This document shows positions 1 through 16,844 of a DNA stretch of 64,000 bases, piece by piece (the stretch's first letter is position 1; each line of letters opens with the position of its first letter). The notes beneath the pieces are model-generated. The model saw nothing but the letters and a program-made list of their open reading frames with translations. It made no database searches and was not told where the DNA came from. The DNA is from the human T2T-CHM13v2.0 reference genome, Homo sapiens: NCBI RefSeq assembly GCF_009914755.1, contig NC_060926.1, one strand, 5' to 3'. A program made the translations under genes and the position numbers.

Positions 1-59
1 AAAATTTGTGGTATGCTGTTAAGCAAAAATTTGAGGAAAATTTACAGAATTAAATGTTA

Positions 60-451
60 ATAATCGAAAAAAAGTTGTCATATCAGCTTCCCCTTTAATA
101 AAATAGAAAAAGAGGAGCAATGTAAACCTATAATAAGCAGAATAAAAGAAATTAACACCAGGAGAAATCAATGAAATAGAAATTTGAAAAAATAGTAGAA
201 AAGATCAACGACTCAAAAGAGGTTTATTGAAACCAATACAGTAGACTCCCCTTATCCATAATTTTGCTTTCTGTGGGTTCAGTTACCCACAGTATATAGT
301 ACAATAAAATGCAAAACTGATAAACCCCTAGCCACTCTGATCAGGGAATAAATGAAGACACAAATTGCCAATTTCAGAAATGAAAGAAGGGGTATCACTG
401 CAAAGTCTGCAAATATTAAAAGAAAAATAAGAAAATATTGTAAACAGTATT
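60..451 (+). mobile_element. Old L1 (L1M-type) ORF2 fragment, the integration target of the HERV-H provirus
   Basis: L1 ORF2-like tracts gaaatcaatgaaatagaa...aaaagatcaac and gataaacccctagcca...aagacacaaattgccaatttcagaaatgaaagaaggggtatcactgca. Confidence 0.8.
239..300 (+). mobile_element. Short Tigger-derived (MER44-like) DNA transposon end inside the L1
   Basis: TA followed by cagtagactccccttatccataattttgctttctgtgggttcagttaccc resembles the MER44/Tigger7 terminus. Confidence 0.55.
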
Positions 452-775
452 TGTCATGCCTCTGAGCCCAAGCCTGCACATATACATCCAGATGGCCTGA
501 AACAACTGAAGAATCACAAAAGAAGTGAAAATGGTCAATTCTTGCCTTAACTGATGACATTACCTTGTGAAATTCCTTCTCCTGGCTCAGAAGGTCCCCC
601 ACTGAGCACCTTGTGACCCCCGCCCCTGCCCACCAGAGAACAACCCCTGCCCCACCCCTAACTCCCTTTGCTGACTCTCTTTTCCGACTCAGCCTGCCTG
701 CACCCAGGTAATTAAAAAGCTTTATTGCTCACACAAAGCCTGTTTGGTGACCTCTTCACATGGATGTGCGTGACA
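452..775 (+). mobile_element. 5' LTR7 (324 bp, TATA region deleted)
   Basis: tgtcatgcctctgagcccaagcc...gcgtgaca; aligns to 6775-7140 except a ~43-bp gap; attaaa poly(A) signal at 711-716. Confidence 0.95.
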
Positions 776-777
776 TT

Positions 778-795
778 TGGTGCCATGACTTGGAT
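778..795 (+). promoter_or_regulatory. Primer binding site complementary to tRNA-His
   Basis: tggtgccatgacttggat versus TGGTGCCGTGACTCGGAT (two CpG transitions), 2 nt after the LTR end. Confidence 0.93.
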
Positions 796-918
796 CAGGG
801 GACATCCCTTGGGATATCAATCCCCTGTCCTCCTGCTCTTTGCTCCATGAGAAAGAGCCACCTACAACCTCTGGTCCTCAGACCAATCAGCCCAAGGAAC
901 ATCTCACCAATTTTAAAT

Positions 919-927
919 CAGGTAAGC
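919..927 (+). promoter_or_regulatory. HERV-H major splice donor
   Basis: cag|gtaagc about 145 nt downstream of the 5' LTR, the usual HERV-H leader donor position. Confidence 0.7.
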
Positions 928-1307
928 GGCCTCTTTCTATTCTCTTCTCTAACCTCTCTCACTATCCCTCAACCTCTTTCTCCTTTCAATTTTGGTGCTA
1001 CCCTTCAATCTCTCCCTTCCCTTAATTTCAGTTCCTTTCACTTTCTGGTAGAGACAGAGGAGATGTGTTTTATCCGTGAACCCAAAACTCCAGCACCGGT
1101 CACGGACTCAGGAAGACAGTCTTCCCTTAGTGTTTAATCACTGCAGGGATGCCTGCCTGATTATTCACCCACATTTCAGCGGTGTCTGATTACCATGGGG
1201 ATGCCTGCCTTGATCCTTCACCTTGGTGGCAAGCACCACCTCCCAAGGGGGCAAGTACCCCCCCACCTCTTCTCTCTTTGTCTCTACCCTCTCTTTGCTC
1301 CTTCACT

Positions 1308-2548
1308 ATGGGCAATCTTCCACCTTCCATTCCTCCTTCTTCTCCCTTAGCCTGTGTTCTCAAGAACTTAAAACCTCTTCAACTCACACCTGACCTAAAA
1401 CCTAAGTGCCTTATTTTTTTCTGCAATAACACTTGACCCCAATACAAACTCAACAATGGTTCCAAATAGCCAGAAAATGGCACTTTCAATTTCTCCATCC
1501 TACAAAATCTAGATAATTCTTATGGAAAAATGGGCAAATGGTCTGAGGTGCCTGACGTCCAGGTATTCTTTTACACATCAGTCCTTCCCTAATCTCTGCT
1601 CCCAATGCAACTCATCCCAAATCTTTCTTCTTTCTCTTCTGTCTGTTCCTTCAGTCTCCACCCCAAGCTCTGAGTCCTTTGAATTCTCCTTTTCTATGGA
1701 CTCATCTGACCTCTCCCCTCCTCCCCAGGCTGCTCCTTGCCAGACTGAGCCAGGTCCCAATTCCTCCTTGGCCTCCACCCTATAATCCTTCTATCACCTC
1801 CCTTCCTAACACCTGGTCCAACTTACAGTTTCATTCTGCAACTAGCCCTCCCCAACCTGCCCAACAATTTCCTCTTAAAGAAGTGGCTGCATCTAAAGGC
1901 ATAGTCAAGGTTAATGCTCCTTTTTTTTTATCTGACCTCTCCCTATCCGACCTCTCCCAAATCAGTTAGCGTTTAGGCTTTTCTTCATCAAATATAAAAG
2001 CTCAGCCCAGTCCATGGCTTGTTTGGCAACAACCCTTAGATGCTTTACAGCCTTGGACCCAGAGAGGCCAGAAGGGGCCATCTTATTCTCAATATGCATT
2101 TTATTACCCAATCCACTCCCGACATTAAAAAAAGCTCCAAAAATTAAATTCCAGTCCTCAAACCCCACAGCAAGACTTAATTAACCTTGCCTTCAAGGTG
2201 TGCAATAATAGAGAAGAGTTGCAATTACTTGCTTCCACTGTGAGAAAAATCCCAGCCACAACTCCAGCACACAAGAACTTCAAAATGCCTGAACTGCAGT
2301 GGCCAAGGGTTCCTCCAGGACCTCCTCCCCCAGGATCTTGCTTCAAGTGCCAAAAATCTGGCCACTGGGTCAAGAAATGCCCGCAGCCCGGGATTCCTCC
2401 TAAGCCATGTCCCATCGGTGTGGGACCCCACTGGAAATCGGCCTGTCCAACTCACCTGGCAGCCACTCCCAGAGCCCCTAGAGCTCTGGCCCAAGGCTTT
2501 CTGACTGACTCCTTCCCAGATCTGCTCAGCTTAGCGGCTGAAGACTGA
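1308..2548 (+). pseudogene. gag: Disrupted HERV-H gag
   Basis: MGNLPPSIPPSSPLACVLKNLKPLQL N-terminus; CFKCQKSGHWVKKC CCHC knuckle; ends LAAED-stop; several stops and frameshifts. Confidence 0.9.
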
Positions 2549-5500
2549 TGCTGCCTGATCTCCTTGGAGGCCCCCTGGACCATCACGGACGCTGAGCTTC
2601 GGGTAACTCTCACAGAGGACAGTAAGTCCATCCCCTTCTTCATCAATACGGAGGCTATCCACTCCACATTACCTTCTTTTCAAGGGCCTGTTTCCCTTGC
2701 CTCCATAACTGTTGTGGGTGTTGACGGCCAGACTTCTAAACCTCTTAAAACTCCCCAACTCTGGTGCCAACTCGGACAACATTCTTTTGTGCACTCCTTT
2801 TAAGTTATCCCCACCTGCCCAGTTCCCTTATTAGATCGAGGCATTTTAACTAAATTATCTGCTTCCCTGACTATTCCTAGGCTACAGCCACACCTCATTA
2901 CCGCCCTTTTCCCCAGTTCAAAGCCTCCTTCGCATCCTCCCCTTGTATCTCCCCACCTTAACCCACAAGTATAGGACATCTCTACTCCCTCCTTGGCGAC
3001 CGATCATGCACCCCCTACCATCCCATTAAAACCTAATCAACCTTACCCCACTCAATGCCAATATCCCATCCCACAGTACGCTTTAAAAGGATTAAAGCCC
3101 GTTATCACTCGCCTTTACAGGATGGCCTTTTAAAGCCTATGAACTCTCCTTACAATTCCCCATTTTACCTGTCCAAAAACTGGACAAGTCTCACAAGTTA
3201 GTTCAGGATCTGCGCCTTATCAACCAAATTGTTTTGCCTATCCACCCCATGGTGCCAAACCTATGTACCCTTCTATCCTCAATACCTCCCTTCACAACCC
3301 ATTATTCTGTTCTGGATCTCAAACATGCTTTCTTTACTATCCCTTTGCGCCCTTCACCCCAGCCTATCTTCACTTTTACTTGGACTGACCCTGACACCCA
3401 TCAGGCTCAGCAAATTACCTGGGCTGTACTGCCACAAAGCTTCATGGACAGCCCCCATTACTTCAGTCAAGCCCAAATTTCTTCCTCATCCATTACCTAT
3501 CTCGGCATAATTCTTCATGAAAACACACATGCTGTCCCTGCTGATCATGTCTGGCTAATCTCCCAAACCCCAACCCCTTCTACAAAACAACAACTCCTTT
3601 CCTTCCTAGGCATGGTTAGGTACTTCTACCTTTGGATACCTAGTTTTACCATCCTGACTAAACCATTATATAAACTCACAAAACAAAAAACAAACAAACA
3701 AACAAACACAAAACCTAGCTGACCCCATAAATCCTAAATACTTTCCCCATTTCCCTTTCCATTCCTTAAAAAACAGCCCGAAAAGCTGCTCCCAAACTAG
3801 TTCTCCCTAATTCATCCCAACCCTTTTTCATTACACACAGCCGAAGTGCAGGGTTATGCAGTTGGAATTCTTACACAAGAGCCGGGATCACGCCCTGTAG
3901 CCTTTCTGTCCAAACAACTTGACCTTACTGTTTTAGGCTGGCTGCCACATTATTCCTGATACCACACCTGACCCCCATGACTGTGTCTCTCTGATCCACC
4001 TGGCATTCACTTGATTTCCCCATATTTCCTTCTTTCCTGTTCTCACCCTGATCACACTTGGTTTATCAATGGCAGTTCCACCAGGCCTAATTGCCACTCA
4101 CCAGCAGAGGCAGGCTATGCTGTAGCAGTATCTTCCACATCTATCCTTGAGGCTACCACTCTGCCCCCCTCCACTATCTCTCAGCAAGCTGAACTCATTG
4201 TCTTAACTCGAGCTCTAACTCATGCAAAGGGACTACACGTCAATATTTATACTGACTCTAAATATGCCTTCCATATCCTGCACCACCATGCTGTTCTATG
4301 GGCTGAAAGAGGTTTTCTCACTATCCAAGTGTCCTCCATCATTAATGCCTCTTTAATAAAAATTCTTCTCAAGGCCCCTTTACTTCCAAAGGAAGTTGGA
4401 GTCATTCACTGCAAGGGTCATCAAAAGGCATCAGATCCTACTGCTCAGAGCAACAGTTATGCTGATAAGGTAGCTAAGGAAGCAGCTAGCATTCCAACTT
4501 CTGTCCCTCACGGCCAGTTTTTCTCTTCATCGGTCACTCCCACCTACCCTCCCACTGAAACTTCCACCTAACAATCTCTTCCCACACAAGGCAAACGATT
4601 CTTGGACCAAGGAAAATATCTCCTTCCAGCCTCACAGGCCCATTCTATTCTGTCATCATTTCATAACCTCTTCCATGTAGGTTATAAGCTGCTAGCCTGC
4701 CTCTTAGAACCTCTCATTTCCTTTCCATCGTGGAAATCTATCCTCAAGGAAATCACTTCTCAATGTTCCATCTGCTGTTCTACTACTCCTCAGGGATTGT
4801 TCAGGCCACCTCCCTTCCCTACACATCAAGCTCGAGAATTTGCCCCTGCCCAGGACTGGCAAATTGACTTTACTCACATGCCCAAGTCAGGAAACTAAAA
4901 AACCTCTTGGGCTGGGTAGACACTTTCACTGGATGGGTAAAGGCTTTCCCACAGGGTCTAAGAAGGCCACCATGGTCATTTCTTTCCTTTTATCAGACAT
5001 AATTCCTCAGTTTGGCCTTCCTACCTCTATACAGTCCAATAACAGACCGGCCTTTATTAGTCAAATCACCCAAGCAGTTTCTCAGGCTCTTAGTATTCAG
5101 TGGAATCTTCATACCCCTTACCATCCTCAATCTTCAGGAAAAGTAAAACAGACTAATGGTCTTTTAAAGACACAACTCACCAAGCTCAGCCTCCAACTTA
5201 AAAAGGACTGGACAGTACTTTTACCTCTTGCCCTTCTCAGAATTAGAGACTGTCCTTGAGATGCTACAGGGTATAGTCCATTTAAACTTTTATATAGACG
5301 CACTTTCTTGCTCTGCCCCAATCTCGTCCCAGACACAAGCCCTCTAGGTGACTACCTTCCAGTCCTCCAGCAGGCTAGACAGAAAATTTGCCAGGCTGCT
5401 AATCTTCTCTTGCCTACTCCAGATTCCCAACTATGTAAAAACACCCTAGCTGGATGATCATTTCTTGATAAAAATCTGACCCCTCAAACACTACAATCCG

Positions 5501-5720
5501 GATGAACCAGACCCTACTTAATCATCTATAGTACCCCAAATGCCATCTGCCTGCAGGATCCTCCCCACTGGGTTCACCATTCCAGAATAAAGCTGCATCC
5601 GTTTGACAGCCAGCTTAGGCAGCCTAATCTCTCCTCTTCCTCCTGGAAGTCGCAAGTACTCTCCCCTACTTGCCTTAAACTCACTTGCATTTCTGAAGAA
5701 CAGTAATAACCTTCATGAGC
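2549..5720 (+). pseudogene. pol: Disrupted, internally deleted HERV-H pro-pol (PR, RT, RNase H, IN)
   Basis: ORF pieces LDLKHAFF and WAVLPQSFMDSP (RT), NIYTDSKYAF and HCKGHQ (RNase H), WQIDFTHMP and HTPYHPQSSGKV (IN); the YxDD segment is absent. Confidence 0.93.
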
Positions 5721-6043
5721 CTAATACATCCCTTCATTCTATTAGGTCTATTCGTCCTTACCCCACTTTTTGTAACAGGGCTTTACCCAGGCACCACCAC
5801 TACTTGGACTGTGCCCCCAAAAACTTGTCATCCCTACTATCTTCTGTCTAGTCATATGCCTATTCACCGTTCTCAACTACTCATAAATGCCCTGCTCTTG
5901 TTTACACTGCCGATTTACACTGTTTCTCCAAGCCATCACAGCTGATATCTCCTGGTGCTATCCCCAAACTGCCACTCTTAACTCCCTCTTAAAATAAATA
6001 AATAATCTTTACTGGCAGGGCACCCTCCAATACTTTCACCCTG

Positions 6044-6660
6044 ATGAAGTCCTATTATTTACTTTTATACTCACTCTTATTCTCGTTCCCGTTCTTATGC
6101 CACCCTCTACCTCTCCCCAGCTATCTCCACCACACTATCAATCTCACTCACTTTATCCTAGCTATTTCTAATCCTTCTTTAAAAAACAATTGCTGGCTTT
6201 GCATTTCTCTTTCCTCCAAAATCGCCCAGGCCTTGACTTACTCACTGCTAAAAAGAAAGGGGGGACTTTGTGTATTTTTAAATGAAGAGTGTTGTTTTTA
6301 CCTAAATCAATCTGGCCTGGTGTATGACAACATAAAAAAACTCAAGGATAGAGCCCAAAAACTTGCCAACCAAGCAAGTAATTACACTGAACCCCCTTGA
6401 GCACTCTCTAATTGGATGTCCTGGGTCCTCCCAATTCTTAGTCCTTTAATACCTGTTTTTCTCCTTCTCTTATTTGGACCTTGTGTCTTCTGTTTAGTTT
6501 CTCAATTCATACAAAACCACATCCAGGCCATCACCAATCATTCTATATGACAAATGCTCCTTCTAACAACCCCACAAAATCACCCCTTACCACAAAATCT
6601 TCCTTCAGCTTAATCTCTCCCACTCTAGGTTCCCACGCTGCCCCTAATCCCGCTCAAAGC
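6044..6660 (+). pseudogene. env: Deleted HERV-H env remnant (short SU stub joined to TM)
   Basis: CWLC motif joined directly to an immunosuppressive-domain remnant and GGLCVFLNEECCFYLNQSG (CX6CC). Confidence 0.9.
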
Positions 6661-6761
6661 AGCCCTGAGAAACATCACCCATTATCTCTCCATACTACCC
6701 CCAAAAATTTTCACCGCCACAACACTTCAATACTATTTTGTTTTATTTTTCTTATTAATGT

Positions 6762-6774
6762 AAGAAGACAGGAA
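6762..6774 (+). promoter_or_regulatory. Polypurine tract
   Basis: aagaagacaggaa immediately before the 3' LTR. Confidence 0.85.
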
Positions 6775-7140
6775 TGCCAGGCCTCTCAGCCCAAGCCTGC
6801 ATATATACATCCAGATGGCCTGAAGCAACTGAAGAATCACAAAAGAAGTGAAAATGGCCAGTTCCTGCCTTAACTGATGACATTATCTTGTGAAATTCCT
6901 TCTCCTGGCTCAGAAGCTCCCCCACTGAGCACCTTGTGACCCCTGCCCCTGCCCGCCAGAGAACAACCTCCTTTGACTGTAATTTTCCACTACCCACCCA
7001 AATCCTATAAAACTGCCCCACCCCCATCTCCCTTATTGACTCTCTTTTCGGACTCAGCCTGCCTGCACCCAGGTGATTAAAAAGCTTTATTGCTCACACA
7101 AAGCCTGTTTGGTGGTCTCTTCACATGGACGTGCATGACA
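6775..7140 (+). mobile_element. 3' LTR7 (366 bp, TATA intact)
   Basis: tgccaggcctctcagcccaagcc...gcatgaca; TATAAAA at 7006-7012; attaaa at 7076-7081. Confidence 0.96.
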
Positions 7141-7262
7141 ATATTCACAATATTCAAAACTGGGCTACTGCACAGTTGTCTTTAACATCATCGTGAGATG
7201 ATGTTAAACGTTAAGAATTCTCTTTAACGTCATCCTGAGGATTACCTCTTTCCTTCTTTTAT

Positions 7263-9974
7263 GCCCAGTTCATGGTCTGCTTAGCAACAACCCTTAGATG
7301 CTTTACTGCCCTAGACCCAGAGGGCCAGAAGGCCGCCTTATTCTTAATATGCATTTTATCACCCAGTCAGCTCCTGACATTAGAAAAATCTTCAAAATTG
7401 GAATCGGGCCCTCAAACCCCACAACAGGAATTAATCAACCTCCCCTTCAAGGTGTACAATAATAGAGAGGAGGTAGCCACACAATAATGCATTTCTGAGT
7501 TACAGCTACTTGCCTCTGCTGTAAGTCAATCCACAACCACGTCTCCAGCATACAAAAACTTCAGAACATCCAAGCCACAGCTCCCAGGGACTCCTTCAAA
7601 ACATCCTCGTGGACCTTGCTTCAAATGCCAAAGCCTGGCCACTGGGCCTCAGAATGCCCGCAGCCTGGGATTCCTCCTAAGCCGTGCCCTGTCTGTGCAG
7701 GCACCCACTGGAAATCGGACTGACTCACATTGCCGCTGCTCCTAAAGCCCCTGGAGCCCAAACCCAACGTTCCTTGGCTGACTCCTTCCCAGATCTCCTC
7801 AGCTTAGCAGCTGAAGACTGATGCTGCCTGATCGCCTCGGAAGCCCCCGGACCATCATGGATGCCAAGCCTTGGGTAACTCTTACAGTGGAGGGTAAGTC
7901 CGTCCCCTGTTTAATCAATATGGGGGCTACCCATTCCACATTACCTTCTTTTCAAAGGCCTGTTTCCCTTGCCCCCATAACTGTTACGGGTATTGACAGC
8001 CAAGCTTCAAAACCCCTTAAAACTCCCCCACTCTGGTGCCAACTTGGACAACATTCTTTTATGCACTCTTTTTTAGTTATCCCCACCTGCCCAGTTCCCT
8101 TATTAGGCCGAGACATTTTAACCAAATTATCTGCTTCCCTGATTATTCCTGGACTACAGCCACATCTCATTGCCACCCTTCTTCCCAACCCAAAGCCTCC
8201 TTCACGTCTTCCTCTAGTATCCCCCACCTTAACCCACAAGTATGGGACACCTCCACTCCCTCCCTGGCAACCGATCACATGCCCATTACTATCCCATTAA
8301 AACCTAATCACCCTTACCCAGCTCAACACCAGTATCCCTTCCCACAGCAGGCTTTAAAAGGATTAAAGCCTGTTATCACTCGCCTGTTACAGCATGGGCT
8401 TCTAAAACCTATGAACTCTCCTTACAACTCTCCCATTTTACCTGTTCAAAAACCAGACAAGTCCTACAGGTTAGTTCAGGATCTGTGCCTTATCAACCAA
8501 ATTATTTTGCCTATCCACCCTGTGGTGCCCAACCCGTACACTCTTTTGTCCTCAATACCTTCCTCCACAACTTACTATTCCATTCTTGATCTTAAAGATG
8601 CTTTTTTCACTATTCCCCTACACCCCTCATCCCAGCCTCTCTTTGCTTTTACCTGGACTGACCCTCACACCCATCAGTCCCAGCAACTTACCTGGGCTGT
8701 ACTGCCACAAGGCTTCAGGGACAGCCCTCATTACTTCAGCCAACCTCTTTCTCAAGATTTACTTTCTTTCCACCCCTCCGCTTCTCACCTTATTCAATAT
8801 ATTGATTACCTTCTACTTTGTAGCCCCTCCTTTGAATCTTCTCAAAAAGACAACCTCCTGCTCCTTCAACATTTATTCTCTAAGAGATATTGGGTATCCC
8901 CCTCCAAAGCTCAAATTTCTTCTCCATCCTTTACCTACCTTGGCGTAATTCTTCATAAAAACACACATGCTCTCCCTGCTGATCATGTCTGACTGATCTC
9001 TCAAACCCCAACCCCTTCTACAAAACAACTCCTTTCCTTCCTGGGCATGGTTGGATACTTTCGCCTTTGGATACCTGGTTTTGCCATCCTAACAAAACCA
9101 TTATATAAACTCACAAAAGGAAACCTAGCTGACCCCATAGATCCTAAATCCTCTCCCCACTCCCCTTTCTGTTCCTTGAAGATAGCTTTAGAGACTGCTC
9201 CCACACTAGCTCTCCCTGACTCATCCCAACCCTTTTCATTACACACAGCCCAAGTGCAGGGCTGTGCAGTCAGAATTCTTACACAAGGACTGGGACCGCA
9301 CCCTGTAGCCTTTTTGTCCAAACAACTTGACCTTACTGTTTTAGGCTGGCCATCATGTCTCCATGCGGTGGCCGCCACTGCCCTAACACTTTTAGAGGCC
9401 CTCAAAATCACAAACTATGCTCAACTCACTCTCTACAGTTCTCACAACTTCCAAAATCTATTTTCTTCCTCACACCTGACACATATATTTTCTGTTCTCC
9501 AATTCCTTCAGCTGTACTCACTCTTTGTTGAGTCTCCCACAATTACCATTGTTCCTGGCCCAGACTTCAATCTGGCCTCTCACATTATTCCTGATACCAC
9601 ACCTGACCCCCATGACTGTATCTCTCTGATACACCTGGCATTGACTCCATTTCCCCATATTTCCTTCTTTCCTGTTCCTCACCCTGATCATACCTGGTTT
9701 ATTGATGGCAGTTCCAGCAGGCATAATCGCCATACACCAGCAAAGGCAGGCTATGCTATAGTATCTTCCACATCTATCATTGAGGCTACCACTCTGCCCC
9801 TCTCCACTACCTCTCAGCAAGCCAAACTCATTGCCTTAACTCGAGCCCTCATTCTTGCAAAGGAATTGTGTCAATATTTATATTGACTCTAAATATGCCT
9901 TCCATATCCTTCACCACCATGCTGTTACATAGGGAGAAAGAGGTTTCCTCACTACACAAGGGTCCTCCATCATT
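7263..9974 (+). mobile_element. Second, LTR-less HERV-H internal segment (gag 3' half, pro, RT, RNase H) with undeleted pol
   Basis: Collinear with ~2005-4344 of the provirus but divergent and carrying two extra pol blocks; no PBS, PPT or LTR of its own. Confidence 0.93.
7821..9886 (+). pseudogene. pol: pro-pol pseudogene: PR, then RT-connection-RNase H in one frame with a single internal stop
   Basis: ORFs 8036-8992 and 9047-9886 share a frame, separated by TGA 8990-8992; motifs LDLKDAFF, LPQGFRDSP, YIDY (defective YIDD), WFIDGSS. Confidence 0.9.
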
Positions 9975-10266
9975 CTCAGCAAACTGACACAGGAACAGAA
10001 AACCAAACACCACACATTCTCACTCATAAGTGGGAGTTGAACAGTGAGAACGCAGACACAGGGAGGGGAACATCACACACCGAGGCCTGCTGGCGGGTGG
10101 GAGACAAGGGGAGGGATAGCATTAGGAGAAATACCTAACGCATGTGGAGTTTAAAACCTAGATGATGGGTTGATAGGTGCAGCAAACCACCATGTCACAT
10201 ATATACCTATGTAACAAACCTTCACATTCTGCACATGTATCCCAGAACTTAAAGTATAATAAAAAA
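9967..10266 (+). mobile_element. 5'-truncated primate L1 3' end (L1PA7/L1PA8-like) with short A tail
   Basis: ccatcattctcagcaaactgacacaggaacagaaaaccaaacac...ttaaaacctagatgatgggttgataggtgcagcaaaccacc...cagaacttaaagtataataaaaaa. Confidence 0.93.
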
Positions 10267-10349
10267 GGAAAGAAATATGGTTTTCTTTTTAATTGCTGTG
10301 GTTTGAATTGGATTTCAATTACTTGATGAAAACGTTACCAGACACCTCT

Positions 10350-10878
10350 CATACACCACTTTAAATTTTCTCATCCAACCCCTTACTCTAGCCAGGGTTG
10401 CAGCAACCAGCCCTACTTCCCTTTGAATAGCTCCATGCTGATGTCATCTGACAGCATCTCACTTGAGGCTGCCCTGAGTACCTCTCACTCCTGCCCCTGG
10501 GATTCTCTCATGCTGCAGCATGGAGCATCCATGAAAATCCACTTGATGTCCATGCATGTGCAATCTGCAAGTACAGATAAATTCTCACCCTTGAGGTTAC
10601 CCTTGACTAATTGGAGACAGAACCAGTGAATAAATGCTTCCTAAATAGATGGCTCCGATGCTCATTTCATGAAGTTCCTCAGGCGATCCTGCAGAATCAA
10701 GCACAGTCACGCACAGTGAAGCCAGCTTAAGAGCACGTCCATGTTTTGGCTTTCCCTAGTTTCCTGCTAAATGGCTCTTATTCTTCACTCTGGAACCCTG
10801 AGATCACTTTCCAAATAAACTTCTTTCATGACATGCTTTCACTCAGGCTCTGCTTGGAGAGAAATTCTGGCTAATCAC
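10350..10878 (+). mobile_element. Old ERVL solo LTR (LTR16-like)
   Basis: 3' end tccaaataaact...ctcaggctctgcttggagagaaattctggctaa resembles the LTR16 terminus; boundaries approximate. Confidence 0.6.
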
Positions 10879-10949
10879 TTTAATTTTACCAATTTTTTAA
10901 ATTCCACAATTTAAAAAAAGCCTTGTCCATAAACTATGTGAAAACCCTC

Positions 10950-11058
10950 TATTGGCTATAATAGCAAAATATGAATTATTGGCTATAATAGCAAAATATG
11001 AATTATTGGCTATAATACCAAAATATGATTATTGGCTATAATACCAAAACATGAATTA
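10950..11058. repeat. Minisatellite, 4 x 27 bp (tattggctataatagcaaaatatgaat)
   Basis: Four near-identical consecutive units read directly. Confidence 0.95.
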
Positions 11059-11718
11059 AGGTTTTCATTTTCCCTAAAATTTTTGAAAATTATTTCCTTA
11101 ATCTCTAATTTATTTGTTAATGGACTAGACTAGGAGGTGTTGAGCAAATGCCAGTTGTTCTGTTCAGAAAATGCTATTTGTTGTGTATTCTTTAAATACT
11201 TGGCATGGGCTTATAATTTGGTGACTGATTTGCTTTTTTAGCAATAACAGCAGTAACTCATTAAGGCAGTTATGCATAATGTTACTACATTTTAATATTA
11301 TTATTAAGATAACCAACTTAGTACTTGAATACCAAGGAATGGTAATGCCCATTTTATTACCTATGAATAGAAGGGGTGGGTGAAAAAAATAAATCAGCAA
11401 TTAACATCAGAAAACATCATGGGACTTTCATTTATTATTTACTTACAAATTGCATTGAAATCTTCTTTAAGAACCTTGTGAGGTTAGTTCTGTAAATTGC
11501 ACATTGGCATACCAGCCGGTAAGGAAGAACTTACTTCCTTACTGGAGAAGTTGGAGAAATTTAATATTTTGCTTATAACCCTTAGTCATGTTATTTCAAA
11601 GATGTGATCCAAGGTTACAGTCATGTGGTAACCATATTATTTTTTAAGAGACCCTAAAATTAAGCAGAATGTTACTTCCCAATTACCCAACAATTATCTC
11701 AAATGAATGGTAGCAGGC

Positions 11719-11721
<3 letters not shown>

Positions 11722-11760
<39 letters not shown>
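11722..11760. repeat. (CA)n microsatellite, about 19 units
   Basis: Uninterrupted AC run. Confidence 0.98.
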
Positions 11761-11763
<3 letters not shown>

Positions 11764-12249
11764 GCAAACTCAAACTACCTTTGATGCCCCAAACCCAAGA
11801 TAAGCCCATTCAGCATGTTGAAGCTAAGCCCAAACCACTTCCTTATGAAATTGGAGCCTTCCTTAAGCTACCAAGACCAGTTCAGAACCACCACAATTTT
11901 GCTAAGACCAAACTAATGGTAAGTTTTGTGTTATATTTAAAGGTGCCAGTAGAATATATCACTGATAACTCACCATTATAACTAGAAATAAAATAACTAG
12001 TTTGATCATTTTAAATTGAAGGGCAGTAATTAAGTTGACACCAAGAATTGCGGTCTGTTTTCCAAGTAATAACTATAATCTTACAACTGGTATAATCTTA
12101 CAACTCGTATACCTACAATAGGTATAATCTTGCAGCTGACTGAAAACTTAGCACTAGGAAATGTTCTTTCAAAATGGACTCAAAAGCTTAATGTCTTGAA
12201 ATGGTTTGAATTTACAACTGAAAGTACACAGAAAGATATCTTTTGGTAA

Positions 12250-15200
12250 ATGTTAGTATTGAAACATAGATACACTAAAGAGCACTGTATATACAATAAA
12301 GAACACAGCTCAACAAATTTTTATAAATTTGAATGCACCCAGGTCACCACCATCTACATCAAGATAGAGAGCATTATTAGAATATTAGAATCCCAGAAGC
12401 CTCCTATCCTCTCTCAATCATCCTCAATCATTATTCCTCCAAAGGTAACCAATATTCTGACTTCTATCACCATAGTTTTAGCTTTGGTTGTTGTTGAAGT
12501 TTATATGAATGGAATCATACATTATCACATACTCTTGTGTCTAGTTTTTTGAAACCTTTTTTCAATTGATATATAATAGTTGTACAAATTTTGGAGGTAC
12601 ATGTGATTTTTGATACACATACATAATGTGTAATGATAAACTCAGAATAATTGGAATATCCACCACTTCATACATTTATATTTTCTTTGTCTTGAGAACC
12701 TTCTAATATTTCCTTTCTAGCTATTTTAAAATATGTAATAAGTAAACTATAATCTCCTGACTCTCCTATCGAATAATAGGATTTATTCTATCTATCTAAC
12801 TGTAGTTTTATACCCATTTATCAACTTCTCTTTGCCTCCTTCTACCCTTCCCAGCCTCTGTCTGGCTTTTTTGACCAATATCTTATCTATAAGATTTATC
12901 CATATTTTTACTTGTAGCCATGGTTTGATATTTTTTAGTGCTGTATAATATCCCATTATTAAATTTATCACAATTCATTTGTATTTTCTACTTCTGATGG
13001 ACATTTGGGTATTTCCAGTTTGAGAATCTTACAAATAATGCTAATATAAACATTTTTATGTATTCTGATGAATATATAAATTTCTGTTGTGTATATATCT
13101 AATATTAGAATTTCTGTATCATAAGGTATGTTTATGTTTAGCTTTGGTAGGTTTTCAAATAGTTTTTTTAAAGTAGTTGTACTAATTTACATCCTCCCTG
13201 CCCCTAGCAGTGTAGTAAAGTGTTGTTTATACCCTTACCAATAATTGTCCACTTTTTATTTTTTTTTAATTTCAGTCATTCCAGTGGGTAGGTAGCGCTA
13301 TGTCATTGTGGATGTAACATGCATTTTTCTGTTAATGATGTTGAATGTCTTTTCATATGCTAATTATCATTTGCATATATTCCTAAGTACCTATTCAAGT
13401 TTTCTTTTGTTCATGTTAATTGGGTCACTGTCATATTTCTTAATTTTTTAATTTAAGCTATTTGTTAGATATATGCATTTCAAATATATTCACTCTTCTA
13501 TGGCTTACGTTTTAACTCTATTGTATGTTTTAATGAACAGAAGTTCTTAATTTTTAATAAGGTACAATTTATCAATTTTTTCCTTTATGGTTAGTGCTTT
13601 TGTTTCCTTTTTAGAAATCTTTGCTCATCCCTAGATCATGGAGATCTTGTTCTATGTTAACCTTTAGAAGTTTTATTTTTTTCATTTTTCACACTTAGGC
13701 ATATTACCTTTAAGTATCCACATATAGTTAAGTACATGGAACCCATCTGACATTAATTTTTGTATATAGTACGAGGTAGGGGTCAAGGTTCATCTTTTTG
13801 TCATGTGGATATTGAACTAATCCAGTTCAATTTACTTTTTAAAATTCTTTCCTCAAAATGCATTTAATTTACACCCATGTTGAAAGTGACTATATATGCA
13901 GACATCTGTTCCTGGACTCACTAGTCTTTTCAATGAGCTACCTGTTCATCTTTGTGCCAACATCATACTGCTTTAATTATGGAGCTTTATGATAAGTGTT
14001 GATATTCAGTGGCATTAAGTGTCCTAACTTACATCTTCTTCAAGAGTGGCTTGATTATTCTAGATCCTTTGCTTTTTCATAAAAATTTTAGGATCTGTTT
14101 ATCAATTTTCATTTCAAGAAATGCTGATGGAATTTTAATTGGGCTTGCATTAAATCCATAAATCAATTTAGGGGAGATTATCTATTCTAGGAAGTGATAC
14201 ATCTCTTCTTTTATGTGGGTCCTCTTTCACTTACCTCAATATTTTGTAGTTTTCTGTTTTAGGTTTTCAATGTTTGATAGACTGATTTCTATGTATTTAT
14301 TGCTTTTGATGCCATTGGAAAGAGCATCATTTTTAATCAATTCATCTGCAGGCTTATTGCCTTATTTAGGAAAATAATGGAGTTTCTGTGTATTTACCTT
14401 GTATTCAGTGACTTTACTCATTCACTTGTCAAACCTGGTTGTTTGTAGATTCTTTTTGATTTTCTATGTACAAAATCCACATTATCTCCAAATAATTACT
14501 TTTTTAAAATTCATAATTTTTATGACTTTGGTTTTTTTGTTTATTCTATTGCACTAACCGTGTGTTCCTGTACAGCATTAAGTGGAAGTGGTGGTACTGA
14601 ACACTGTTGTGTTATTTCAGACTTTAGGGGAGAAGCCATTCACTATTTCCCCCATTAAGTAAGTAGCTGTAAGTTTTTTAAAGATGGTCATTAATAGTTT
14701 GATTTTTTAAAATTTCTAGTTCCTAAGAGATTTTAGCATGAATGAGTGTTGAATTTTTTCAAATGCTTTCTCTGCATCTACTGAGATAATCACATTGTTT
14801 TCTTATATTATTTTTACTTTGGTATCTTATGAAGATTAAAATTTTAATATTAAATCAATCACACATTCCTAGAATAGATTCAATTTGGTCATGATGTATT
14901 TGATGTGTGAATATTTTATTTAAGATTTTTGGGTCTATGTTTATATAAGAAATTGGCTTTTAGGTTTTGCTTTTTGTAATATCCTTGCTAGGTTTTAATT
15001 TCAAGATTACGCTGTCCTCATAAAATGAGTTCCCTCATTTTTTTATCCTTTGTCTTTTCTCCTTGGGCATAACATTTTAAGGAGTTTCAAATGAATCTGG
15101 AGTGTTTATGAAGGCCCCTCCTTGGCAAGTCTGAATTCTAGTTTTTCCTCAGTACTAATAGATTGCCAAAATACCTGCAGCTCAGTTTCTTAGCCTCTTA

Positions 15201-15670
15201 GCAACTGTAATCTGCTGGCTTTCTCTGTGTCTCCTTCTGTGCACCCACAGCTTAGAAGTCATCAAATGGCACAAGGGAAACTGCATACAAAATGCTGGGT
15301 TTAATTCTCTACAGCTTTCTTTTCTCAGCACAGGGTGATTTCAAGTCCTATTCGTCTTAGTAGCTCTAAATTCCAATTTTTATACCCCTTTCCCAGTGAA
15401 GCTGCCAGAGCTCTAGGATGCTGCTTTCCTTCCAGCCTGTGTCCCATGTTCTCAGGAGTAAAAGCAGTAGTAAATGTAGGACTCACCTTAATATTCTTTT
15501 ATTCACTACAAGATCCCAGCCCTTCAAATCCTGGCTTTCTAGATTACTCTCCAATGACTTAAGATGGTTGTTTTAGTTTGTTTTGCTTTGCATTTTATCC
15601 AGCCTTTATAGTTAATATAGCAGAAACACACTAGGCTGATAAGAGCTACTCCATCATAGCTAGAGTCAGA
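12250..15670 (-). mobile_element. Ancient L1 (L1ME/L1MC-type): 3' UTR and ORF2 end, plus a 5' remnant at ~15050-15670
   Basis: Antisense L1 hallmarks gatggacatttgggt, ctttaattatggagctttatgataag, aaatgctttctctgcatctactgagataatcac. Confidence 0.85.
12556..12860 (-). mobile_element. L1MA-type 3' end nested in the older L1
   Basis: attgatatataatagttgtacaaattttggaggtacatgtgat...cccttcccagcctctg; flanked by degenerate TSD tgtctagtttttt / tgtctggcttttt. Confidence 0.8.
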
Positions 15671-16844
15671 ACCCCTTAATAGAGCTCTGCAATAGATGCT
15701 CATGAGGCATCACCACTCACTCTATCATTTCACATCTGGAACAGGCTGTTCTTTTGCTGAGGTTAGGAGTTTGTGCCCAGTTAGGGGCAGGATGAAAGAC
15801 TTTGTCTCACTCTCCGGAGCCCTGTAATTGTTCACTGAATGGGAGTCATCTTCATGGTCCATTGGTGTTGCCTCCAGACAGCAGATTTTTTTAATAGTGA
15901 TATTTATGGGGCTATTTATTGGGGCATAATTTTATCCAAACTGGATTTCTCAATTCTGCCCAATTGACACTAAAACAGGAGATACTATATGGCATAATAA
16001 GTTTGCTTATTTGTTTTTCTGTTCAAACAGCTACCATTTTCTCCTATATAGAGGAAAGATAAATATTACCTCATAAATCAGAAATATGAATCTACCACCT
16101 GAGCAATAATAACATATATACCTGTGATTGATTCATTACCTGCAACTTCAGCAGCCACAATATTTCAAAAGATGTTTATAGCATAAATTTCTTCCACATG
16201 GGCCCCAACCCATGTCCTATTAATGCTAACCATATACAGTCAGAAATTCATAACAAAGTCAAGAGGAATCCTCTGAACAATCTATTTCCTGATTTTTTTC
16301 TGGAAGACTCCTACAAAACAGTAGCTTATATTGAATTTTAAAAGGGATAAATACCTATCAATTGAAATGTTATTCTGTCACTATGTATCTAAGAGTGGCA
16401 TGGAGACAAATTTGCCTAATCTATAATAAAAATATTTTTTAATTTAAAAAATTTCTCTGAGTTTCTAGTTTTCTAAATCCTATGACAGAAAAACATTAAC
16501 AGTGCATATTGGTAACTGGAAAGTTTATTGGCATTAATTTCTGAATAGCCATGAAAAGTGATAAAAATGAGGGGTGGAAAGAATTGGGGGGAAATCTGAT
16601 TGTTGTTTACAAAGACGAATGGTCCCTGGTTCTAGGCCATTTTCATCTTATTGCTAAACCTATCTCCTTGGAGCCTCTCTTTTCTCTTTACATCTTCGAT
16701 ATGGCAGGGCTTATTGTTCGCACTTTGTAACACTAAAGTCTACTGATGCGAATTGCTTTGCTAGAGTGGTTCACTTATGCAGATCTAGCCTTAAATGGCT
16801 CAGATTATGTGTGAATCAGCCCCAACAGAGAGATATCGTCCTTC

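What the first reader, a model, noticed from the sequence alone, without database searches (positions are those of the whole stretch)
7263..10266. HERV-H/L1 chimeric retro-insertion joined by an 8-nt microhomology
Seen: an LTR-less HERV-H gag-pro-pol segment runs without a spacer into the last ~300 nt of an L1PA7/8-type element and its A tail, in the same orientation. The junction ccatcatt (9967-9974) belongs to both parents. HERV-H continues cctCCATCATTaatgcc in the neighbouring provirus (~4335-4350), and the L1 consensus as I recall it reads gaaaCCATCATTctcagc. Known: L1 ORF2p can switch templates during target-primed reverse transcription, as in U6/L1 chimeras, giving a 5' foreign RNA plus a 3' L1 tail. 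Inference: L1 RT switched onto a co-expressed HERV-H genomic RNA and copied 2.7 kb of it. The alternative is a microhomology-mediated genomic deletion that fused a second provirus to an existing L1. I found no convincing TSD; aagaaaatattgt (429-441) versus aagaaatatggt (10270-10281) is only a weak A-rich candidate.
Basis: partly seen in the sequence, partly recalled or inferred. Interest (0 to 1): 0.8.

Follow-up and report, generated by a model that had tools for sequence, protein, structure and literature searches.

The report
HERV-H fragment fused to L1 tail
A 2.7-kb piece of an ancient human endogenous retrovirus (HERV-H) runs straight into the last 300 bases of an L1 element through 8 shared bases; this may be a rare L1-made hybrid copy or the scar of old deletions, and the sequence alone cannot tell which.

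Summary
An LTR-less HERV-H gag(C-end)-protease-RT-RNase H segment (7263-9974) joins the last 300 nt of an L1PA-type element (9967-10266) in the same orientation. CCATCATT (9967-9974) belongs to both parents: 15 of 18 genomic HERV-H rows and 28 of 42 L1 rows carry it at that place. No other locus among those scored carries the whole junction.

The mechanism stays open. No direct TSD flanks the unit, so a defining mark of L1 template-switch chimeras is not met.

Three points favour one aberrant L1 event:
- The 16 nt flush against the HERV-H 5' end are the reverse complement (15/16) of the L1 end plus 3' flank. This is weak evidence, because a similar match lies inside HERV-H.
- The unique 122-nt spacer upstream has snap-back-like repeats.
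- The old L1 that the neighbouring provirus interrupts never resumes, so target DNA was lost here.

My odds:
- about 0.4: one L1 event with a template switch
- about 0.3: later deletions trimming a second provirus against a resident L1
- about 0.15: an L1 insertion-mediated deletion
- about 0.08: a retrocopy of an already fused transcript

Orthologous primate loci would decide. This would be a new member of a known kind, of moderate interest.

The parts
1..451 (+). Old L1 (ORF2-like) fragment. It continues at least 815 bp to the left of the window, is interrupted at 451 by the neighbouring provirus, and never resumes.
   Evidence: 70-80% identity to other old L1 copies. Positions 1-140 of a profile built from 17 copies match 313-451 at E 3.9e-33. 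The profile finds nothing in 7141-7262 or 10267-10700 at E<=100. Anchored alignment is no better than random window pieces.
452..7140 (+). Neighbouring full-length HERV-H provirus (context, not part of the junction). LTR7-like LTRs lie at 452-775 and 6775-7140. TSD-like GTATT (447-451) and ATATT (7141-7145) flank it.
   Evidence: LTR-to-LTR alignment has 23 mismatches and 2 gaps in 367 columns, and the 5' LTR is 42 nt shorter. Sequence read.
7141..7262 (+). 122-nt spacer, unique in the genome, rich in hairpins and local repeats. It may be repair filler or original flank.
   Evidence: Only a self-match in the whole genome. DNA fold -22.8 kcal/mol, z -8.05, 0 of 200 shuffles as stable. No Rfam family near its threshold.
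7179..7239 (+). Snap-back-like block. It has a direct repeat 7179-7197 / 7221-7239 (17 of 19), a perfect 12-bp hairpin 7181-7192 / 7197-7208, and a second stem 7208-7216 / 7221-7230.
   Evidence: (I4). There are 2 copies in the window against 0.08 expected.
7247..7262 (+). Pyrimidine run TCTTTCCTTCTTTTAT, flush against the HERV-H 5' end. It is the reverse complement (15 of 16, one gap) of 10259-10273.
   Evidence: 5 of 2000 shuffles and 20 of 18238 window 30-mers score as high. One search lists it as I6. Caveat: I2 shows that the same 3' flank also pairs 14 of 16 with 9655-9670.
7263..9974 (+). LTR-less HERV-H internal fragment: gag C-end, protease, RT and part of RNase H. All frames are broken.
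9967..9974 (+). CCATCATT, the 8-nt stretch shared by the HERV-H and L1 parents at the join.
9967..10266 (+). The last 300 nt of an L1PA-type element, with its AATAAA and a 6-A tail.
10259..10280 (+). L1 end plus A/G-rich 3' flank (ATAAAAAAGGAAAGAAATATGG). It is the partner of the inverted match to 7247-7262.
   Evidence: The 3' flank 10267-11000 is otherwise unique in the genome.

Best explanation
One aberrant L1 retrotransposition event made the whole unit 7263-10266.

Inferred steps:
1. L1 endonuclease nicked the bottom strand at the A-rich site now at about 10261-10267.
2. ORF2p copied the last 300 nt of an L1 RNA.
3. The nascent cDNA end, complementary to CCATCATT, re-annealed to the same 8 nt inside the RNase H region of a co-expressed HERV-H genomic RNA.
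4. ORF2p went on for 2.7 kb and stopped in gag.
5. The cDNA end was not joined to its own reciprocal end. It was joined to an upstream DNA end by alternative end-joining. That lost target DNA (hence no TSD, and the missing 3' part of the old L1) and left filler, including an inverted copy of the integration-site sequence, at 7179-7262.

Shown: the anatomy, the shared 8 nt, the absence of a TSD, the inverted match, the filler-like repeats, and the non-resuming old L1.

Inferred: that all of these come from one event, and that the HERV-H template was RNA.
For: - Same orientation and a seamless join through 8 nt present in both parents. Chance of such an overlap is about 1e-4.
- The L1 part is only 300 nt. 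Law and Burns report that L1 parts of chimeras are more truncated than genomic L1 in general (section read).
- The HERV-H part has no LTR and a sharp 5' end in gag, as a 5'-truncated cDNA would.
- The 16 nt flush with that 5' end are the reverse complement of the L1 end plus 3' flank (5 of 2000 shuffles; 20 of 18238 window 30-mers). This ties the far end of the HERV-H part to the L1 integration site.
- Mendez-Dorantes et al. (PMC11702581, passages) describe nine L1-driven insertions made from two RNA transcripts; same-orientation ones are read as template switching. They also describe three insertions with inverted genomic DNA at the reciprocal end, three with DNA templated from near the integration site, and target-site deletions at 5'-truncated insertions.
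- The spacer's snap-back repeats and the missing remainder of the old L1 fit a deletion with filler at this 5' junction.
- No source locus with the same junction exists among the 40 scored of 2258 candidates.
Against: - No direct TSD. The best match is 7 nt, not adjacent to the poly(A), and 51 of 500 shuffles reach it. No direct 9-mer is shared with the next 3.7 kb.
- The inverted flank match lies in low-complexity sequence. The same A/G-rich flank pairs 14 of 16 with 9655-9670 inside HERV-H (I2). I found the match after several other repeat searches, so its weight is small.
- Template jumps described for chimeras such as U6/L1 need little or no homology (recalled, not checked here), so an internal 8-nt guided switch is not the textbook form.
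- The catalogue of Law and Burns names no ERV or HERV partner in its main text or in the 6 supplementary files held.
- The unit sits 122 nt from another HERV-H provirus. This model leaves that as coincidence.
- The deletion and filler could belong to a separate event.
Confidence: 0.4

Rival explanations
1. Two or more ordinary genomic deletions. A second HERV-H provirus once lay downstream of the first, and a 5'-truncated L1 lay further downstream in the same orientation. One deletion, repaired with templated filler, removed the rest of the old L1, the DNA in between, and the 5' LTR and leader of the second provirus. Another deletion, repaired by microhomology-mediated end joining at CCATCATT, removed its integrase, env and 3' LTR together with the 5' part of the L1.
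For: - A deletion or rearrangement junction must exist at or just right of the first provirus, because the old L1 stops flush at 451 and never resumes.
- The HERV-H 5' boundary lies within 122 nt of that point.
- The spacer has the direct-plus-inverted local repeats typical of templated repair filler.
- The absence of a TSD is expected.
- 8 nt is a comfortable length for microhomology-mediated repair (general knowledge, not checked here).
- It explains why two HERV-H elements of different lineages (81-88% identity) are now neighbours.
Against: - It needs at least two independent deletions that bracket the same 2.7-kb fragment, plus a resident L1 in the right orientation.
- The match between the HERV-H 5' flank and the L1 3' end would be pure chance.
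- No remnant of a second provirus's LTR or env survives anywhere in the 64-kb window.
Confidence: 0.3
2. L1 insertion-mediated deletion at the HERV-H/L1 junction. A 5'-truncated L1 inserted downstream of an existing HERV-H element. Its cDNA end annealed through CCATCATT to a resected upstream DNA end inside the provirus, and the DNA between was lost. The 5' truncation of the HERV-H element was a separate event.
For: - A 5'-truncated L1 with a poly(A) signal and A tail, no TSD, and microhomology at the L1 5' junction.
- This is the published signature. In 90 somatic L1-mediated deletions no TSD was found, and 47 of 63 resolved 5' junctions had microhomology (PMC7058536, passages).
- 5'-truncated insertions show target-site deletions and microhomology of 2 bp or more (PMC11702581).
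Against: - The reported microhomologies were 1-5 bp with a median of 3, so 8 nt is beyond that range.
- Orientation would be a coin toss.
- It needs a pre-existing HERV-H element already lacking, or later losing, its 5' LTR.
- The inverted flank match would be chance.
Confidence: 0.15
3. Retrocopy of an already fused transcript. Elsewhere in the genome an L1 tail had inserted into the pol region of a HERV-H provirus. LTR7-driven transcription was polyadenylated at the L1 AATAAA, and that RNA was retrotransposed in trans by L1 and 5'-truncated in gag.
For: It gives the same final structure: HERV-H sense, L1 tail, short A tail. HERV RNA can be mobilised by L1, as HERV-W processed pseudogenes show (PMC5537654, abstract and passages).
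Against: No other locus carries the junction among the 40 scored of 2258 candidates; a full-length match would have ranked first. It also lacks a TSD.
Confidence: 0.08

Closest known systems
Chimeric LINE-1 insertions (U6/L1, U3/L1, 5S/L1, Alu/L1, mRNA/L1; Buzdin-type chimeric retrogenes; the catalogue of Law and Burns 2025/2026)
   Same: A foreign sequence sits 5' of a heavily 5'-truncated L1 3' end, in the same orientation, fused directly, and ends in the L1 poly(A) signal and A tail (paper sections).
   Different: No TSD flanks the unit. The partner is a 2.7-kb internal piece of a retroviral genomic RNA, not a small RNA or mRNA end. The join uses 8 shared bases. No ERV partner is named in that paper's main text or in the 6 supplements held.
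L1 insertion-mediated deletions (Gilbert 2002 and Symer 2002, both recalled; Han 2005, seen only as a citation in PMC1920257; PCAWG PMC7058536)
   Same: A 5'-truncated L1 with an A tail, no TSD, and microhomology at the L1 5' junction.
   Different: The microhomology here is 8 nt, against 1-5 nt reported. Loss of target DNA cannot be shown without an ancestral allele.
HERV-W processed pseudogenes (L1-mobilised retroviral RNA)
   Same: Retroviral RNA copied by the L1 machinery. PMC5537654 calls HERV-W the sole HERV group specifically mobilised by L1.
   Different: Those copies run R-U5 ... U3-R with their own poly(A) and a TSD. This fragment has no LTR part and borrows the L1 3' end.
L1 insertions with a 5' inverted poly(A) tail (twin or dual priming variants; Meyer et al. 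2010, PMC2837659)
   Same: A T-rich run that is the inverse of the tail sits directly 5' of a sense-oriented insertion. 22 of their 39 loci also carried 4-2263 bp of extra non-L1 sequence.
   Different: Their runs are 14-39 nt of nearly pure T and lie inside 7-20 bp TSDs. Here the run is 16 nt of mixed T/C and no TSD is seen.
SVA composite retrotransposon
   Same: An L1-mobilised composite that contains a piece derived from an endogenous retrovirus LTR (mentioned in Law and Burns).
   Different: SVA is a propagating family. This is a single dead copy.

Membership tests
L1 template-switch chimeric retrocopy | The 3' part is a 5'-truncated L1 3' end with a poly(A) signal and A tail | tested here: met
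   9967-10266 matches L1 3' ends at 88-92%. The tail is only 6 A, followed by A/G-rich sequence.
L1 template-switch chimeric retrocopy | The 5' part is a copy of another RNA, fused directly and in the same orientation | tested here: met
   HERV-H sense strand 7263-9974, with no spacer and an 8-nt overlap. That the template was RNA is inferred.
L1 template-switch chimeric retrocopy | A direct TSD of about 7-20 bp flanks the whole unit | tested here: not met
   The best direct match is 7 nt, is not adjacent to the tail, and is reached by 51 of 500 shuffles. No shared direct 9-mer.
L1 template-switch chimeric retrocopy | An L1 endonuclease motif (TT/AAAA) at the 3' junction | tested here: inconclusive
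   The 3' flank is A-rich, and if 7262 was once joined to about 10261 the site would read TTTTAT/AAAA. The pre-insertion site is not known.
L1 template-switch chimeric retrocopy | Both parts arrive together against an empty site in outgroups | not testable with these tools
   Only this human genome is searchable. Both flanks are unique, with no paralogous empty site.
L1 insertion-mediated deletion | A 5'-truncated L1 with an A tail, no TSD, and microhomology or filler at the 5' junction | tested here: met
   The 8 nt exceed the 1-5 nt reported in PMC7058536.
L1 insertion-mediated deletion | Target DNA is missing relative to the ancestral allele | not testable with these tools
   Only indirect evidence: the HERV-H lacks integrase, env and LTR, and the old L1 lacks its 3' part.
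Integrated HERV-H provirus | LTR7 at both ends with a short TSD | tested here: not met
   No LTR7 other than those of the neighbouring provirus exists in the 64-kb window. The 5' boundary is in gag.
Integrated HERV-H provirus | gag-pro-pol homology to HERV-H | tested here: met
   81-88% identity to the neighbouring provirus and 88-95% to other copies. Pfam finds RVP, RVT_1 and RNase H.
HERV processed pseudogene (HERV-W type) | R-U5 ... U3-R structure with its own poly(A) and a TSD | tested here: not met
   No LTR-derived part. The only A tail is the L1's. No TSD.
5' inverted poly(A) tail insertion (Meyer et al. 2010) | [quoted passage not shown] | tested here: inconclusive
   A 16-nt T/C run that is 15 of 16 complementary to the tail region. 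It is not pure T, there is no TSD, and a similar chance match lies at 9655-9670.

The most novel reading that the evidence does not exclude
L1 ORF2p made a homology-guided internal template switch from L1 RNA onto HERV-H genomic RNA and copied 2.7 kb of it. This would be the first described HERV-H sequence mobilised by L1; a 2017 review calls HERV-W the sole HERV group so mobilised. The event would have been resolved by a complex 5' junction (target deletion, snap-back filler, inverted copy of the integration site) of the kind recently seen in cell-culture L1 experiments, here fixed in the germ line some tens of millions of years ago.
Probability: 0.4. Interest if true: 0.5.

Novelty: new member of a known kind. 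Interest (0 to 1): 0.35.

Why it matters
If this is a single event, it shows two things:
- L1 reverse transcriptase can jump, guided by a few shared bases, onto the abundant HERV-H RNA of early embryonic or germ-line cells. This would add a retroviral partner to the list of L1 chimeras and a second HERV group to those moved by L1.
- The messy junctions seen in engineered L1 systems (deletion, filler, inverted target copies) also occur and become fixed in primate evolution.

If it is the product of deletions, it is an ordinary scar. Its only use is as a warning that seamless repeat-to-repeat junctions with microhomology are not proof of RNA recombination.

No gene or annotated functional element lies in the window, according to the annotation supplied with the finding.

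Tried and rejected
1. None exceeded chance. My coordinates for the provirus-1 test were off by 6. The 4-of-5 GTATT/ATATT match was read by eye.
2. A 3' transduction ending in a later A run with a TSD. There is no A run of 8 or more within 10267-16000 and no shared direct 9-mer.
3. Using the old L1 as a ruler for the pre-insertion site. It does not continue in 7141-7262 or after 10267, so no empty site could be inferred this way.
4. An inversion joining the old L1 (+) at 1-451 to the L1 (-) at 12867-15055. The profile coordinates are nearly continuous. I rejected this because the minus piece is only about 60% identical to the same copies that match 313-451 at about 73%, and no inverted HERV-H partner exists.
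5. The spacer as an RNA gene. The best Rfam hit scores 19.7 bits against a threshold of 176.
6. Tracing templates for the spacer elsewhere in the window. Only chance-level 10-12-mers turned up.
7. A source locus or second copy of the junction. None among the 40 scored of 2258 candidates.
9. Han 2005, Zingler 2005 and Buzdin 2003 are not held. What I say of them is recalled or taken from citations in PMC1920257 and PMC2912911.
10. Searches for a HERV-H/L1 chimera in print found none. This covers only the held open-access library.
Full report
LAYOUT. The window is human chr2 (T2T). Reading left to right:
- an old L1 ORF2-like fragment on the + strand, which ends at 451
- a full-length HERV-H provirus at 452-7140, with LTRs at 452-775 and 6775-7140
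- a 122-nt spacer at 7141-7262
- an LTR-less HERV-H internal fragment at 7263-9974
- the last 300 nt of an L1 at 9967-10266
- unique DNA

The spacer matches only itself in the whole genome. The 3' flank 10267-11000 is also unique apart from one weak 69-nt hit.

The HERV-H fragment aligns to the neighbouring provirus in three blocks: 7263-8743 to 2005-3470 at 80.9%, 8907-9350 to 3469-3942 at 81.9%, and 9581-9974 to 3946-4343 at 88.2%. It keeps two stretches that the neighbour lacks. The two are therefore different HERV-H lineages, not a local duplication.

All 39 other HERV-H matches to a probe across the 5' boundary start at 7263 or 7264. Broken frames hit retroviral protease, RT and RNase H in Pfam. 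The L1 part matches L1 3' ends at 88-92% and differs at 20 of 300 positions from the majority of its 29 nearest copies. That is consistent with an insertion tens of millions of years old. I could not test the subfamily name.

With a 181-nt probe across the join, HERV-H copies cover probe 1-95 and L1 copies cover 88-181. Only the locus itself covers all of it, among 40 scored of 2258 candidates. CCATCATT is exact at that place in 15 of 18 HERV-H rows and 28 of 42 L1 rows. A blunt random join gives 8 or more ambiguous bases with probability about 1e-4, so the join was made by base pairing.

NO TSD. For the unit 7263-10266 the best direct match between the 40 nt on each side is TTCTTTT. It is not adjacent to the tail, and 51 of 500 shuffles reach it. 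No later A run or shared direct 9-mer suggests a 3' transduction. The papers I read treat a flanking TSD as the molecular evidence that a compound insertion arose in one target-primed event (Law and Burns). That membership feature is therefore tested and not met.

A LINK BETWEEN THE TWO ENDS. The 16 nt flush against the HERV-H 5' end (7247-7262, TCTTTCCTTCTTTTAT) are the reverse complement, 15 of 16 with one gap, of 10259-10273, the L1 end plus 3' flank. 5 of 2000 shuffles and 20 of 18238 window 30-mers score as high.

Three readings would make this real:
- The target was a pyrimidine-run/purine-run site (TTTTAT/AAAA) and the unit went in with no duplication.
- The flap of the reciprocal end was inverted, or sequence was templated from the integration site. 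PMC11702581 reports three cases of each.
- It is an inverted tail copy of the kind described in PMC2837659.

Any of these would tie the far end of the HERV-H part to the L1 integration site and favour one event. I give it little weight. The sequence is low in complexity, I found the match after other searches, and the same A/G-rich flank pairs 14 of 16 with 9655-9670 inside HERV-H (I2).

DNA WAS LOST OR REARRANGED HERE IN ANY CASE. The old L1 runs from at least 815 bp left of the window to 451, flush with the provirus. A profile of 17 related copies matches 313-451 at E 3.9e-33 but finds nothing in 7141-7262 or 10267-10700, even at E<=100. An anchored alignment of 7146-7178 to the expected continuation is matched by 134 of 400 random pieces. 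Yet the provirus has a 4-of-5 TSD-like pair, GTATT and ATATT.

The spacer folds far better than shuffles (z -8.05). It holds a perfect 12-bp hairpin, a second stem, and a 17-of-19 direct repeat found nowhere else in the window. This pattern looks like snap-back templated filler at a repair junction; that reading is an inference. It is not a known RNA family.

An L1 piece at 12867-15055 on the minus strand has nearly continuous profile coordinates. It is much more diverged from the same copies (about 60% against about 73%), so I do not read it as an inversion partner.

WEIGHING THE MODELS.

One aberrant L1 event (template switch at CCATCATT, then joining to an upstream end with deletion and filler) accounts for the following with a single event after the first provirus:
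- the orientation
- the short L1 part
- the LTR-less, 5'-truncated HERV-H part
- the missing TSD
- the lost old-L1 DNA
- the filler
- the inverted match

Its cost is that a template switch onto a long polyadenylated RNA is rare, and an 8-nt guided internal switch is not the usual form.

The deletion model uses only common processes, and it explains why two unrelated HERV-H elements are neighbours. It needs two or more deletions bracketing one fragment, plus a resident L1 in the right orientation.

An L1 insertion-mediated deletion at the HERV-H/L1 join fits the published signature of no TSD and junction microhomology (PMC7058536). Reported overlaps are 1-5 nt, however, and this model leaves the 5' truncation unexplained.

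A retrocopy of a transcript fused elsewhere has no surviving source.

My odds are about 0.4, 0.3, 0.15 and 0.08. These rest on rough rates, not on a test.

WHAT IS KNOWN. L1 chimeras with U6, U3, 5S, tRNA, 7SL, Alu and mRNA pieces are catalogued. Neither the main text nor the 6 held supplements of Law and Burns name an ERV partner. A 2017 review calls HERV-W the sole HERV group specifically mobilised by L1. Four full-text searches found no HERV-H/L1 chimera in the held library; subscription journals are mostly absent from it.

If the single-event reading is right, this is a new member of a known kind. If not, it is an ordinary deletion scar.

VERDICT. The mechanism is undecided, with a modest lean to a single complex L1 event. 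Interest is moderate (0.35). The orthologous locus in other primates would settle it.

Noticed in passing
window 1-451 and 7141-7262: The old L1 that the full-length provirus interrupts stops flush at the 5' LTR and does not resume after the 3' LTR, although GTATT/ATATT looks like a 4-of-5 TSD. Either a deletion began right beside the provirus, or the provirus is a recombinant of two elements.
   Followed up: partly
window 452-775 vs 6775-7140: The two LTRs of the full-length provirus differ by 23 mismatches, and the 5' LTR is 42 nt shorter (324 against 366 nt). That is a lot for one integration event, and it fits the idea of an NAHR hybrid provirus or a U3 deletion.
   Followed up: partly
window 7179-7239: A perfect 12-bp hairpin with a 4-nt loop, a second adjacent stem and a 17-of-19 direct repeat lie in a stretch found nowhere else in the genome (fold z -8.05). 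No Rfam family matches. It looks like templated repair filler.
   Followed up: partly
window 236-307: A different, younger repeat (88-90% identity to copies on other chromosomes) sits inside the old L1 fragment.
   Followed up: no
window 12867-15055: An older L1 ORF2-like fragment on the minus strand. Its 5' end at about 15055 falls about 240 profile positions after the point where the plus-strand L1 stops at 451. I judged it a separate element because it is more diverged.
   Followed up: partly
window 10960-11050 and 11720-11762: A short tandem duplication of a roughly 25-nt unit (TTGGCTATAATA...) and a (CA)n microsatellite lie in the unique DNA downstream of the L1 tail.
   Followed up: no
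window 3660-3720: The full-length provirus carries an A/C-rich simple repeat (AAAACAAAAAACAAACAAAC...) in pol. The second fragment has ordinary sequence at that place.
   Followed up: no
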